From Mobula birostris (Eukaryota): a DNA stretch of 64,000 nt. Below, piece by piece: positions 59,136-64,000 of the stretch. The stretch spans positions 46,940,581-47,004,580 of the forward strand of contig NC_092388.1 of NCBI RefSeq assembly GCF_030028105.1, written 5' to 3'. Both the position numbers and the translations under genes were made by a program. Within the stretch, counting starts at the first letter, position 1, and each line of letters starts with the position of its first letter. The notes under the pieces are model-generated. The model saw only the letters and a list, made by a program, of their open reading frames with translations. It did no database searches and had not been told where the DNA came from.

Positions 59136-60383
59136 TAGAGCACTTCACTCCTTAGAAAAATGGGAAAGGTGAGCCAAGGGAACTGTAAACCAATCAGTTT
59201 AATACCTGCAGTCAGGAAATTTGTGAAGAATAATGTGATGGCACATCTAGAAAAATAGGATTGAGTGAATCCATTATGAATATGCAATAAGTGTCCATCT
59301 TTGATTGAACAATTTGAAAAGTGGGCAGGAGAAAGTTTTTGCATGTAATTCATAAAGAGCTCAAGAAGGCATTTGATAGCATCCCCCATTTGAGACAGCT
59401 AGTGAATGTGAAGCTTGTTAATGATTAGAAAATTGATAAAGTAGCAAATCTGAAATAAAACGAAGTCTGAAATGGGTCAGACAATATAAATTAACATTTC
59501 AAATGGAAGACATTTCATCAGAACTGGGAAAGGGAGGGTGAGCTGATGATGGAGAGGGGCAAAATAACCGTTAAATTGCAAAAGTTCTTGTTTAAACTAC
59601 TTTGTATACAAATGAAATGAAGAACCAAGCAATGTTTTTGGTAGAGGCACATGTGATTGCAGATACTGGAAATTAGAGATTAAACAATCTGCTGGGCCAG
59701 TGTCCTTGGGAGAAAAGGAATTGTTGATGATTTGGATCAAAACTCTGAATCACAATGGGGAGGTGGTTTTCTTTCAGATAAGACACCAAAATCAAAGTCT
59801 CATTTTCTGCTGATGCAGCATTATGACCGAAATCAGTGACATGTCCTTTCTTCTACCTGTAGAGTTCCTCCAGACGGTTGTTTGTTGCTGTTTTCAGTAG
59901 TTACTGTTGAGTATGTAATGTTTAATATTGCCATAGAAACCCATGTAGTCACTTGAATAATCAGGAGCACAAGGGACGGTGATGGTGGAATCTGGAACAA
60001 CCCGTCAGAGGAACTCTGGGTTGAGCAGTGTCTGTGGTGGGGGGTGGGGGAGGAGGGGGGTTGCTGAGGAAGAATTGTCGTGGTTTCAGGTTAAAACCCT
60101 GCATTATCAGGAAATGGGACTTGGATTTTAGTGTCTCATCTGAAAGAGCAACACCTCCCAAAAATACTACTCTCCCTCGGTACAAGAATGAAGTCATGCT
60201 TTGTTGGCTTTAGATCTGCATCAGAACTTGACAGAACAGGTTGGTAACTAAGAGGTGAATGCTATCAACTGAGCAAAGCAGCACCATAACAACTATCGAG
60301 TCGCAGGGGTGCAGTGCTAAAATTTTTTAGGTGCCGGAGCTGACAAGATGCTTGTCATTTCCTATATCCTCTCTATATATATG

Positions 60384-60474
60384 TCACACCCAATTTGTGT
60401 ACTTGCTCATTTCATGTACTGGGCAACTTCCTTGCCCCATTCACGTAATGAGCAGGTACACAAATTGGGTGTGA
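60384..60474. repeat. Short palindromic MITE-like hairpin between (TA)n tracts
   Basis: tcacacccaatttgtgtacttgctcatt ... aatgagcaggtacacaaattgggtgtga: 28-bp arms with one mismatch. Confidence 0.8.
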
Positions 60475-62662
60475 TATATATATATAAAAATAGGGCTTCT
60501 TATAATGTCAAGCACTAAACCAAGATGAAAGAAATATATGAATTCCAGAGCTCCACAGAAATATAGTTTTAGTTGAAACATTAACAAGATTATAGCCTAT
60601 CACTACATTTCAGTGTATAACTGGTACAATAAAACATATAATACTTAATTTAATAATATGACAAAGTATTGCATGGTTGCACTCACTAATTATCATAAAA
60701 TATAATTATTAAACAAGTAAAGAAAAAGATGGTAATTATGTATTTTACCAATTTAAAAGTAATTACCTACTTACTAAATGCCACCAATGAGAAGTTTCAC
60801 AATAGTTTCCACAAAAGGTCAGGTGTAATATGTGTTTGGGGGTCTGAAGCAACTCTCATCCTGGTGTCATCTGCTGATCTGTGGTGTCGCAGCCATGATG
60901 CGACGTACGGCTCAGGATTCCACTGAACTAGAGGAGATCCGTGTAGTTTAACAAACATAAGTGTTGATACATGATTTATGAGAATTCTTGAGCGTGTTGT
61001 TGTTATTATCAAGTTCATGTGACTGAATCCTTTCTGACTCTCAGCAGTACTAATGGGAATAACTTGTGAACAGCTCAGTAATGGACGTAAATCTTGGGGG
61101 ATGCGGCGTCCACAATCCTCCACATAATCTCTGAAGGCATTTATTACAGAGGAAGAAGAAAGCTGAAACCTCTTACAGAGAGATGATATTGCAGCTTCTC
61201 CATAATTAGGTGATATTTCAGCAGGCCAGTTATCTTTATCAAGGGCACACATTTCATTTAGCAGGGATTTATACATACTTTGAGGTTTAGAAGTTTGAAA
61301 ACCTTTCAAGGATGTTGCCGTGAACATACGGTGCTGCATATTGTTTATAAGACTAGTAAGAAACTGTAGATAATTAATGGAGACAATTTTGTTGGTGCTT
61401 GTTAAGGTAATTTCTCCAAACTTCCCCTTTTCAACTGCCTCTTGAGCTTCTAGAGTTTTTGTACCAGGTTGCTCTTTCAGTCCATGCAGTGATTTTGTGC
61501 TCCGTTGGATCAGTTTGTCTGCATAAACAATCGTAGTAGTGCATTTCTGTAAACACTCTGACAGTAAACCAAGTTCATGCAATGTGTCATACATTAGAGC
61601 TAAGTCCAATAGAAGCTGTTCTGAAGAGAGTCTTTTCAGCAGACCTTCACAGGTTTTTCTGTCACTCCCAGATCTTGTTACATTGCTTTTTCAAAATGAA
61701 AACACAGTGCTTCATAATTTTGCCACACTGCTGAAACTGTTCGAAACGAGCTAGCTACCCACCTGGTGCCCAGAACATGGCCTATTTTGCAAATTTGTTG
61801 TTCTAGTTGAGAGGCACATTCAGACAGTTCCTTTTGATTTAGAGGTGATCTACTGTAAACAGAGTACAATTTGTCCATAAATGATTGAAAATGATTTATT
61901 TCATGAACTTCTCTCACCGAATCACCTACTGCAAGTTCTAATCTGTGATTCAGACAGTGCCAAGTTATCATATCAGGGTAATGTTCCTTGGGAATTGTAG
62001 CAACACCAGATTTGACACCAAGCATTACGCTCGCCCCATCACGCGCAAATGCTACAAGGTTCTGTTTCAAGCAAGGGTCATCAAACCCATGGTTATTGAG
62101 ACAGTTCAATAGATGGTCAGTAATAGTTGCAGCTTTCTGATCAGGCAGTTCAATTAGATCTAAAAATATAAAATGGGGATCACCTTCCTTATCACTTTCA
62201 CATTTCAAATAAATTATTAGGGCGGTCTTAATGCTCAGGCTTGTTGTTTCATCAATGAGAACAGAAAATTTGCCATTTATCTGCTTGATATGCTGGCAAA
62301 TTTTCTTTTTCATATTAATGGCTATGTGATTAATTATCTCTGTAGCACTAGTACGGGAATGCAGTCCAATTCCAATGTCAATACCATTTTTTTTGAAGTT
62401 CCAATAAGCCAAAGTGATCAGAGTATGGTTTGTCATTCTGAGCTAAATAATATGTAGAATGAAAAATTGAACAAGTTGCTTTTAGATGCGAAGCATTCAA
62501 GGTGTCACATAATTTTCGAAGAGCACCTTCACTAGCTATATTTTCAACACTTAGAGCAGCAGTGTGAGCTTTTGATAGTTTGTGATCAACAATTTTCTTT
62601 CTTAGAGACTTCAAGCGTGTACTTCGATCGGCTCCATAATAGAATACTTGGTACACCTGCCA

Positions 62663-63075
62663 TGCCGATTCTCCCGTGATCTGTAAGTTCTTGAGGCTGT
62701 AACGCTTTACATAACCAGCCAGCCATCCCTTACTAGCCTTAAACTCCTTCCTCTTGCTGTCCTCAACCCCCTCACAGTAGTGCTCATAGAGGCTAAGTGC
62801 TTTTTCATGCATAATTTTGCCATCAACAGGGATATGCTTCTGTGACATGTCCTCTAGCCACACGCTTAATGCTTTCTCAGTTTTTGCAAGTACTTTATCA
62901 TGAACCAGAGAGACCATTTTTGACGTTGTAGGGGCAGCACTAACACTTCCACGAATTGCAGGTTCTTTCTGCTTTATTGTGCAAATGCTCGATTCGTTCT
63001 TACCGACCGTACGGCCCACTTCGGCGTGCGACGTGCCACTTTTCAAACGATCTAAGATTGTTACTTTCTCAATGA
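62663..63075 (-). pseudogene. pogo/Tigger (TIGD1-like) HTH-psq + CENP-B-type DNA-binding segment
   Basis: EKVTILDRLKSGTSHAEVGRTVGKNESSI..EKALSVWLED..EKALSLYE..EFKASKGWL..LKNLQITGESA is the characteristic Tigger N-terminus. Confidence 0.88.
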
Positions 63076-63811
63076 ACAACGCTCAAACAGCGAGTGCTGG
63101 AGAGAGACTGAGGATCTGTGAAATGGCGGGAGGCAGGGTACGCTGCGACAATGGCTCAAGTGAGGAGGAATTTCACAAATACCCAAATAAAAAAACAGGA
63201 TTTCACCAAAAATGATCAAATATCCCAATGTTATAAGTGGTATTTTCCCCACCAGCCACCACCCCCTCTCCCCAACCCCCGCTTCCATAAAATTCCCTCT
63301 ATTTAATATGTGGCCTCTGTTAAATTCCCTGCTTGTTTATTTTGACTTTTTTTACAGAGGTGCTGGAGCGGTGCTCCGGTGAGCTCCGGCAGCACCGCTC
63401 CCCTGTTGAGTCGTTAACCAGAATGTGTTTGGGAAAGGGTGAGAACCTAGCCATAAAGAATACTGTAATTCCTCTCAGTTCTGTGATCCAGCTGGCAGGA
63501 TTTCATTTGTTGCATTAACTAGTTCACTATAAGAATACAAGAAGCAGGATCTTGCAGTTCCACTTGCTACTAAATTGGATTTTGATGGTTCAAACAGTCT
63601 CAATGCCATCTTGCCAGGAAGAAGAAAAATCTTGGCTTTAAGGCATTCTCACCTATCTGTTGTTCCTATGTACCTAAGAGTGCAGTTTGGTAACCTTCCT
63701 AATAACTCCACTAATGTTGGGTTGTCGTCTCCCACCATGTAGACCTCATCACTTCAGACATCTTTATTTCTGAATTTGGGAATTTCAGTCAGGTGAACCA
63801 TACCACAACGT

Positions 63812-64000
63812 AGAATCATAGAGATGTACAGCACAGAAACAGGCCCTTCAGCCCATGTAATCCATGCCGAAACCATTTAAACTGCCTACTCCCATCGACT
63901 TGCACCAGGACCATCGCCCTCCATATCCCTACTATCCATGTACCAATCCAAACTTCCCTTAAATGTTGATGTCGAGCTCCCATGGACAACTTGTGCTGGC
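63812..64000 (-). mobile_element. CR1 LINE 3' end (runs off the window)
   Basis: catagagatgtacagcacagaaacaggcccttcagccc is the reverse of the CR1/HER1-type tail. Confidence 0.7.

What the first reader, a model, noticed from the sequence alone, without database searches (positions are those of the whole stretch)
60304..63405. Chimeric transposon: a Tigger/CENP-B DNA-binding module fused in frame to a hAT transposase within intact hAT ends
Seen: hAT TIRs and an 8-bp TSD enclose an ORF in which about 137 aa of Tigger-type HTH-psq + CENP-B HTH (ending ITGESA, junction 62663/62662) continues without stop into hAT sequence (WQVYQVFYYG..SLRKKIVDHKLSKAH..). No Tigger TIRs, TA duplication or Tigger DDE domain are visible. 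The CxxC half of the usual N-terminal zinc finger appears replaced. The hAT part has only a few frameshifts (one in an A-run near 62390), and the third catalytic motif reads AESQKGFS instead of the usual ..ERxFS. No clear in-frame ATG was seen (the ORF call starts at TTG). Known: pogo and hAT are different superfamilies with different DNA-binding domains. Inference: either a one-off capture during gap repair or an amplified family with a swapped DNA-binding domain. The latter would be a new transposase architecture as far as I know.
Basis: partly seen in the sequence, partly recalled or inferred. Interest (0 to 1): 0.7.

Follow-up and report, generated by a model that had tools for sequence, protein, structure and literature searches.

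The report
Amplified Tigger-hAT hybrid transposon family
About a hundred dead copies of a jumping gene in a ray genome join the DNA-binding front of one transposon type in frame to the cutting enzyme of another; sister copies show it arose by deletion after one element jumped into the other, and it was likely moved by the normal enzyme of its relatives rather than by the hybrid protein.

Summary
The chimera is real and is a transposed family, not a one-off. The genome holds 100 junction matches against 46 of the normal zinc-finger form. Of 58 copies with both ends, 57 have an 8-bp target duplication, 56 of them distinct. Both parents are in the genome: a Tigger (99.5% identical to the captured part) and a KIAA1586-like hAT with an intact 742-aa consensus ORF. 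Siblings preserve the route. Tigger inserted at a TA in the hAT's 5' non-coding region, and 33 of 40 zinc-finger copies still carry remnants. A deletion series followed; one deletion joined Tigger codon 162 to hAT codon 118 in frame. The hybrid lost both native start codons and the CxxC and has no Tigger ends to bind. It is out of frame at an A-tract in 62 of 96 copies and decays neutrally (omega about 1). Sister copies sharing stop codons sit at different sites, so it likely moved in trans. Still open: an internal Tigger ATG is the element's first ATG and would give a 748-aa D-D-E protein, and the hybrid is the commonest subfamily assayed.

The parts
63406..63413 (.). Target-site duplication, upstream copy (8 bp)
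   Evidence: 7 of 8 match to 60296-60303
63391..63405 (-). hAT 5' terminal inverted repeat (15 bp)
   Evidence: 13 of 15 complementary to 60304-60318; same end point across the family
63144..63390 (-). hAT 5' subterminal non-coding DNA, shared with zinc-finger siblings; donor-like GT at about 63182-63181 (splicing inferred only)
63071..63143 (-). Tigger 5' non-coding remnant (donor nt 161-239); Tigger 5' terminal repeat already lost; start coordinate approximate
   Evidence: 100% to donor consensus at family level; window hit 63134-63074
62663..63075 (-). Tigger coding fragment (donor nt 369-781, codons about 26-162): truncated CENP-B_N/psq-type HTH plus whole Tc5/CENP-B HTH; joined to the remnant by a 129-nt deletion with 5-nt microhomology
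   Evidence: 99.5% to donor consensus; Pfam
63032..63034 (-). Internal Tigger Met40 codon: ACG here, ATG in 80 of 100 copies; first ATG of the family consensus
62662..62663 (-). In-frame Tigger/hAT junction with 2-nt microhomology; removes hAT codons 1-117 (start codon and CxxC)
60797..62662 (-). hAT transposase codons 118-742 (KIAA1586-like), decayed: two frameshifts, third catalytic E read as Q at 61036-61034
   Evidence: 96% to parent consensus
62387..62394 (-). A8 homopolymer that breaks the frame; the ancestral tract was a mixed 12-nt in-frame sequence
60374..60484 (.). 53-bp-arm palindrome in the 3' non-coding region, family-wide
60304..60318 (-). hAT 3' terminal inverted repeat
60296..60303 (.). 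Target-site duplication, downstream copy

Best explanation
This is one of at least 100 dispersed copies of a hAT subfamily in which a deletion joined the remains of a nested Tigger in frame to the hAT transposase gene, and the copies were likely moved in trans by the normal zinc-finger hAT transposase, the in-frame join likely being a by-product. Steps: (1) shown: a Tigger inserted at a TA about 300 bp inside the hAT 5' end, upstream of the hAT start codon; inferred: this lay in a 5'-UTR intron and was tolerated. (2) Shown: Tigger's first 160 nt were lost, and in one lineage a further 129 nt with Tigger's ATG. (3) Shown: deletions then ended at many points in Tigger; the one ending at nt 781 reached hAT codon 118. 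(4) Shown: this derivative inserted at new sites with 8-bp duplications at the same time as its siblings. (5) Inferred: the enzyme came from siblings with an intact ORF. (6) Shown: all copies examined are now broken.
For: Family: 100 vs 46 junction matches, reversed-pattern controls 0; 57 of 58 two-ended copies have a duplication, against a shuffled mean of 3.4. Route: 33 of 40 zinc-finger copies carry Tigger remnants (32, L101); 10 keep Tigger's 3' end against the same TA site (CA in one); 16 share the chimera's 129-nt deletion but end at nt 407, 465, 646 or 651; L102 spans the site without this Tigger. The parent consensus is an open 742-aa ORF and differs from the chimera's hAT part by 2 deleted and 3 changed bases. 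Non-autonomy: CxxC conserved in relatives is gone; best match to the Tigger terminal repeat has 11 mismatches in 24; 62 of 96 copies are out of frame at the A-tract, mode 10 nt; omega 1.14 in the Tigger part and 0.97 in the hAT part; five sister pairs whose similarity ends at the element share rare stops in the fused frame, e.g. L166/L184 two stops inside the Tigger part. Hermes activity in cells is proposed to rely on BED-domain binding of the left end (PMC10368747, passages).
Against: The internal Tigger ATG is the first ATG of the consensus, and with an in-frame tract the ORF is 748 aa with D, D and E. 34 of 96 copies have an in-frame tract, and the tract slips after insertion (sister pairs differ), so the state of the master copy is uncertain. 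The chimera outnumbers all zinc-finger classes together about 2:1, which is unexplained. Neutral decay and movement of dead copies are also expected for an autonomous cut-and-paste family (established knowledge: transposase acts in trans), and the parent copies give omega 1.01 too, so these tests are weak. Shared changes in sister pairs could come from whole-element gene conversion. Variants shared by 4 or more copies in the hAT part have omega 0.82 vs 1.38 for singletons (Fisher p 0.0002); I read this as recurrent transitions but did not test that.
Confidence: 0.75

Rival explanations
1. The hybrid was a working transposase: translation from the internal Tigger Met gave a 748-aa protein in which the Tigger Tc5/CENP-B HTH replaced the zinc finger as a DNA-affinity module, and it helped drive the family's spread.
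For: In-frame junction at a domain boundary; first ATG of the element; length close to the parent's 742 aa; catalytic triad kept in the consensus; commonest subfamily assayed; 16 of 96 copies keep the 12-nt in-frame tract.
Against: The start falls inside CENP-B_N (aa 17-68 in P0003), losing 23 of 52 residues; no cognate Tigger end in the element; variants shared by 4 or more copies in the Tigger part are mostly non-synonymous (70 vs 12) and the invariant junction Trp reads Gly in 16 copies; no fused homologue among 11 longer proteins or the best 150 of 1260 representatives; same age as the siblings (3.4 vs 3.3%).
Confidence: 0.1
2. The hybrid protein was made but could not transpose alone; it would join parent transposase oligomers through its intact C-terminal part and act as an inhibitor, or tether the complex to Tigger ends.
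For: A translatable first-ATG ORF existed in in-frame copies; hAT transposases oligomerise (Hermes octamer, PMC10368747); the Tc5 HTH is whole.
Against: No Tigger-end hit in 146 chimera flanks or 57 parent flanks of 400 bp (no background rate measured); no selection on the Tigger part; the promoter position is unknown.
Confidence: 0.1
3. The Tigger piece was copied into a broken hAT by template switching during gap repair (Pack-TIR route), without a nested insertion.
For: Microhomologies at both deletion junctions; the route is described for animal Pack-TIRs (PMC8277862, passages).
Against: 10 siblings keep Tigger's exact 3' end against a TA, and L102 looks like the empty site, as expected for a true Tigger transposition. 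Gap repair likely made the later deletions, not the capture.
Confidence: 0.04
4. Single-copy accident or assembly artefact.
For: None found.
Against: 100 junction matches on many contigs with distinct target duplications.
Confidence: 0.01

Closest known systems
KIAA1586-like hAT transposons (coelacanth XP_064412783.1 = P0032; XP_064421760.1 = P0009)
   Same: Parent consensus is 73.8% identical over 744 aligned residues; same D-D-E motifs; the ray family makes 8-bp duplications and has 15-bp terminal repeats.
   Different: The chimera lacks codons 1-117 with the CxxC and carries a Tigger HTH there.
Tigger (pogo) element of this genome, loci L110-L129; relatives P0003, P0031
   Same: Captured part 99.5-100% identical to the donor consensus.
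   Different: No Tigger terminal repeats, TA duplication, start codon or DDE_1 domain in the chimera. The donor's ends resemble human MER2 (recalled, not tested).
Multicopy Pack-TIRs of animals (PMC8277862; search listing and passages read)
   Same: A TIR element carrying foreign sequence and amplified by repeated transposition; hAT is the commonest carrier (208 of the 370 in that paper).
   Different: Cargo is another superfamily's transposase piece, gained by nested insertion and fused in frame to the carrier's own ORF, not host DNA gained by template switching.
Heteromorphic/hybrid Mutator elements of maize (PMC10401008; listing and one passage read)
   Same: Insertion of one transposon into another followed by internal deletion is proposed there as a route to hybrid elements.
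   Different: There the hybrids combine ends within one superfamily; here both ends are hAT and the coding parts come from two superfamilies.
Host-transposase fusion genes such as GTF2IRD2, SETMAR, PGBD3-CSB (bioRxiv 10.1101/2020.05.07.082677; one passage read)
   Same: Transposase domains reshuffled into a new protein architecture.
   Different: Those are spliced, single-locus host genes; this is an unspliced join inside a mobile family with no sign of selection.

Membership tests
hAT superfamily element | 8-bp target-site duplication | tested here: met
   57 of 58 two-ended copies within 2 mismatches (1-nt shift allowed), 29 exact; shuffled mean 3.4, max 11
hAT superfamily element | Short terminal inverted repeats | tested here: met
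   15 bp, same end points across copies
hAT superfamily element | hAT transposase homology with D-D-E | tested here: met
   73.8% to P0032; P0138 (52.7%) passes the Dimer_Tnp_hAT cut-off, the window piece does not; D 97, D 87, E 83 of 100 copies
Autonomous hAT | N-terminal zinc-finger-type domain with CxxC | tested here: not met
   CxxC present in parent and relatives, deleted in the chimera. No Pfam zinc-finger model hit the relatives, so the zinc-finger label is inferred from the C..C/H..H pattern
Autonomous hAT | Open full-length ORF | tested here: inconclusive
   No present copy is intact (longest 328 aa from the ATG among 88); majority consensus is frameshifted; in-frame tract gives 748 aa
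Autonomous hAT | Encoded protein moves the element | not testable with these tools
   Needs a transposition assay
Tigger/pogo element | TA duplication and Tigger terminal repeats | tested here: not met
   Best match 11 mismatches in 24; 8-bp duplications instead
Tigger/pogo element | DDE_1 catalytic domain | tested here: not met
   Donor match ends at nt 781, before DDE_1 (aa 223-404 in P0003)
Tigger/pogo element | CENP-B_N plus HTH_Tnp_Tc5 DNA-binding module | tested here: inconclusive
   Tc5 HTH passes; CENP-B_N truncated and below cut-off
Pack-TIR | Captured non-TE host sequence between TIRs | tested here: not met
   The cargo is a Tigger transposon fragment
Domesticated transposase fusion gene | Purifying selection at a single locus | tested here: not met
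   About 100 copies, star-like tree, omega about 1
Domesticated transposase fusion gene | Transcript across the junction | not tested
   No reads were laid

The most novel reading that the evidence does not exclude
A natural cross-superfamily domain swap that worked: the deletion put the element's first ATG in frame with the hAT core, giving a 748-aa transposase with a Tigger CENP-B-type HTH in place of the zinc finger, and this protein helped make the hybrid the commonest subfamily. Both parents and the intermediates survive in one genome, so the swap can be tested directly.
Probability: 0.1. Interest if true: 0.8.

Novelty: new variant of a known kind. Interest (0 to 1): 0.4.

Why it matters
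Transposon superfamilies differ in which DNA-binding domain sits on the catalytic core, and how such pairings arise is seldom seen directly. Here both parents, a likely empty site and a graded series of deletion intermediates sit in one genome, and the end product amplified about a hundredfold. That shows a full route (nesting, trimming, in-frame join, spread in trans) by which a new architecture can reach high copy number without first being useful. If the fused protein is active it would be a natural retargeting experiment of the kind attempted in transposase engineering. If not, it is a caution: an in-frame, multicopy domain fusion is not by itself evidence of a new enzyme.

Tried and rejected
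Fused homologues elsewhere: none among 11 hits of 411-2000 aa (only 'longer' was searched) or the best 150 of 1260 representatives. P0129 seemed to span the junction but is an ordinary zinc-finger hAT N-terminus. P0001/P0002 carry the same Tigger HTH but on a GTF2I repeat and a different, Spin-doc-type hAT. Upstream exon as source of a start: acceptor-like sites in the Tigger remnant lie upstream of an in-frame TGA, so they cannot supply one (sequence). Tree of 125 of 140 copies (those with over 1400 aligned sites): star-like, internal length 0.19 vs terminal 4.56, so monophyly of the chimeras could not be tested. Targeting to Tigger ends: 0 hits in 146 and 57 flanks. A 3'-end pattern count (111) used this copy's private variants and is only a lower bound; I did not use it as a copy number. 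L221 and L222 have other Tigger-to-hAT-ORF joins, but they may be later deletions of the chimera. Papers: searches returned none; some searches returned listings whose titles and abstract starts name no Tigger-hAT fusion family; passages were read in four papers only, no supplements. Repbase and Dfam were not searchable, so the family may already be catalogued there. Earlier scan notes: none on this family.
Full report
Observation. The element spans 60304-63405 on the minus strand, with 15-bp terminal repeats (13 of 15) and an 8-bp duplication (7 of 8). A 234-aa stop-to-stop frame runs from Tigger into hAT sequence at 62663/62662. Pfam gives HTH_Tnp_Tc5 at E 3.4e-11; CENP-B_N and Dimer_Tnp_hAT are below cut-off. 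The host is a ray, judged from the nearest named proteins and earlier scan notes (unchecked).

It is a family. All 40 scored hits of a 201-nt junction query span the junction (779 candidates). A 28-nt junction pattern with up to 2 mismatches gives 100 matches; the matching pattern for the normal hAT gives 46; both reversed controls give 0. I analysed 100 copies: the window, the 39 other hits, and 60 of the 61 further pattern hits (one on a small contig was not fetched). Two more junction-bearing copies turned up outside the pattern (L225, L226), so 100 is a lower bound. 58 copies have both ends in the fetched stretch; 57 have a duplication within 2 mismatches (1-nt shift allowed), 29 exact, 56 distinct; shuffled pairing gives a mean of 3.4. 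L174 and L176 share a target site and are probably a segmental copy.

Both parents are present. A Tigger DDE-side query found the donor. Its consensus from the top 20 loci matches the chimera at nt 161-239 (100%) and 369-791 (99.5%); its ATG at nt 296 lies in the deleted part, which has a 5-nt microhomology. A query from the zinc-finger region of the coelacanth relative P0009 gave 57 matches, of which I fetched the top 40. The consensus of the first 20 is an open 742-aa ORF with CxxC and D-D-E, 73.8% identical to P0032. The chimera's hAT part differs from it by 2 deleted and 3 changed bases. The junction joins Tigger codon 162 to hAT Trp118 through a 2-nt microhomology.

The route is preserved. 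33 of the 40 zinc-finger copies carry Tigger DNA upstream of the hAT ATG (32, L101). Nine have nt 161-214 plus the last 14 nt of Tigger, and L207 has nt 161-234 plus 1832-2052; all ten abut the same TA site (CA in L097). Sixteen share the chimera's 129-nt deletion and end at nt 407 (1), 465 (3), 646 (4) or 651 (8); six end at 224 and one at 230. Of the other seven, two have deletions over the site, four lack the 5' part, and L102 spans the site without this Tigger, probably the empty site (one copy only). So Tigger inserted by transposition, lost its 5' end, and was trimmed repeatedly; the chimera is the end-point that ran into the hAT ORF. A donor-like GT upstream of the insertion and a strong acceptor about 120 nt before the hAT ATG suggest a 5'-UTR intron, which would explain tolerance; 75 of 81 scorable chimeras lack the donor-like segment. 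This intron is inferred from motifs only.

Could the hybrid be a protein? Tigger Met40 is the first ATG of the consensus, is ATG in 80 of 100 copies (ACG in the window), and with an in-frame A-tract opens 748 codons. The D, D and E codons are kept in 97, 87 and 83 of 100 copies. But the start cuts 23 of 52 residues from CENP-B_N, the CxxC conserved in relatives is gone, and the element has no Tigger terminal repeat. The tract at 62387-62394 was a mixed in-frame 12-mer in the classes that keep Tigger's 3' end and became a homopolymer in the lineage with the 129-nt deletion. In chimeras its length is 9 (18), 10 (41), 11 (18), 12 (16), 13 (2) or 14 (1): in frame in 34 of 96, against 21 of 31 in zinc-finger copies. 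The founder was probably in frame and much of the spread probably came from out-of-frame copies, but slippage after insertion blurs this. No copy is intact today.

Selection and mobility. Non-CpG divergence is 3.4% for chimeras (99 copies) and 3.3% for siblings (34), and the tree is star-like. Omega is 1.14 in the Tigger part, 0.97 in the chimera's hAT part and 1.01 in siblings. Variants shared by 4 or more copies are 70 non-synonymous or stop vs 12 synonymous in the Tigger part. In the hAT part they are less often non-synonymous than singletons (p 0.0002), which recurrent transitions could explain. Of 15 sister pairs examined, most on one chromosome and with similarity ending at the element, the window and L021 (285 kb apart, different target sites) share 25 rare changes. 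Five of the eight pairs checked codon by codon share stops in the fused frame. That fits local hopping of dead copies by an enzyme supplied in trans; gene conversion is not excluded. These tests cannot separate an autonomous from a non-autonomous subfamily, because a cut-and-paste transposase acts in trans (established knowledge). The weight against function rests on anatomy and on the chimera being one of many deletion end-points, where an in-frame join has one chance in three. For Hermes, activity in cells is proposed to need BED domains bound to the left end (PMC10368747, passages); the domain lost here is zinc-finger-like by motif, not shown to be BED.

Comparison. It works like a non-autonomous hAT and is a member of the hAT superfamily by ends, duplication and transposase homology. 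It is not a Tigger, a Pack-TIR in the strict sense, or a domesticated fusion. No fused homologue appeared, and the paper searches listed no such family; Repbase and Dfam were out of reach.

Verdict. Observation confirmed; interpretation partly supported. Best explanation 0.75, working hybrid transposase 0.10, expressed regulator 0.10. The 2:1 excess of the chimera over zinc-finger copies is unexplained. New variant of a known kind; interest 0.4.

Noticed in passing
Proteins P0001, P0002, P0012, P0026 (RefSeq models named for Mobula, Hemitrygon and Hypanus): Ray GTF2IRD2-like gene models begin with the whole DNA-binding module of the same Tigger family (147-156 of 162 aa identical to the donor consensus), then a GTF2I repeat and a Spin-doc-type zinc finger plus hAT. 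This is a second, host-gene Tigger-HTH/hAT architecture, annotated in at least three ray species; orthology, expression and selection untested.
   Followed up: partly
G000:C17, about 33-86 Mb; L210-L219: About 20 copies of a hAT 3' fragment sit inside a longer unit. All 10 fetched align to L212 at 89-97% over several kb, beyond the element end: a chromosome-restricted segmental amplification, not transposition.
   Followed up: partly
window 60374-60484: Palindrome with 53-bp arms bounded by TA runs in the 3' non-coding region; several siblings have about 200 bp extra beside it. Possibly a second nested element.
   Followed up: no
G000:C30 42.70-42.74 Mb; L167, L186, L187: Three related chimera copies, two in tandem about 3.1 kb apart.
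   Followed up: partly
L146 (chimera) and L197 (zinc-finger form), G000:C1 4.15-4.18 Mb: Neighbouring copies of the two forms share 22 rare changes, which points to recombination or conversion between subfamilies.
   Followed up: partly
P0009, P0032, P0036 (coelacanth): The ray hAT is 74% identical in protein to multicopy coelacanth 'KIAA1586-like' models, and the Tigger has close relatives in a skink protein and unnamed assemblies; horizontal transfer is possible but untested.
   Followed up: no
window 63700-64000: Sequence upstream of the element looks like the 3' tail of a cartilaginous-fish LINE (recalled, not tested).
   Followed up: no
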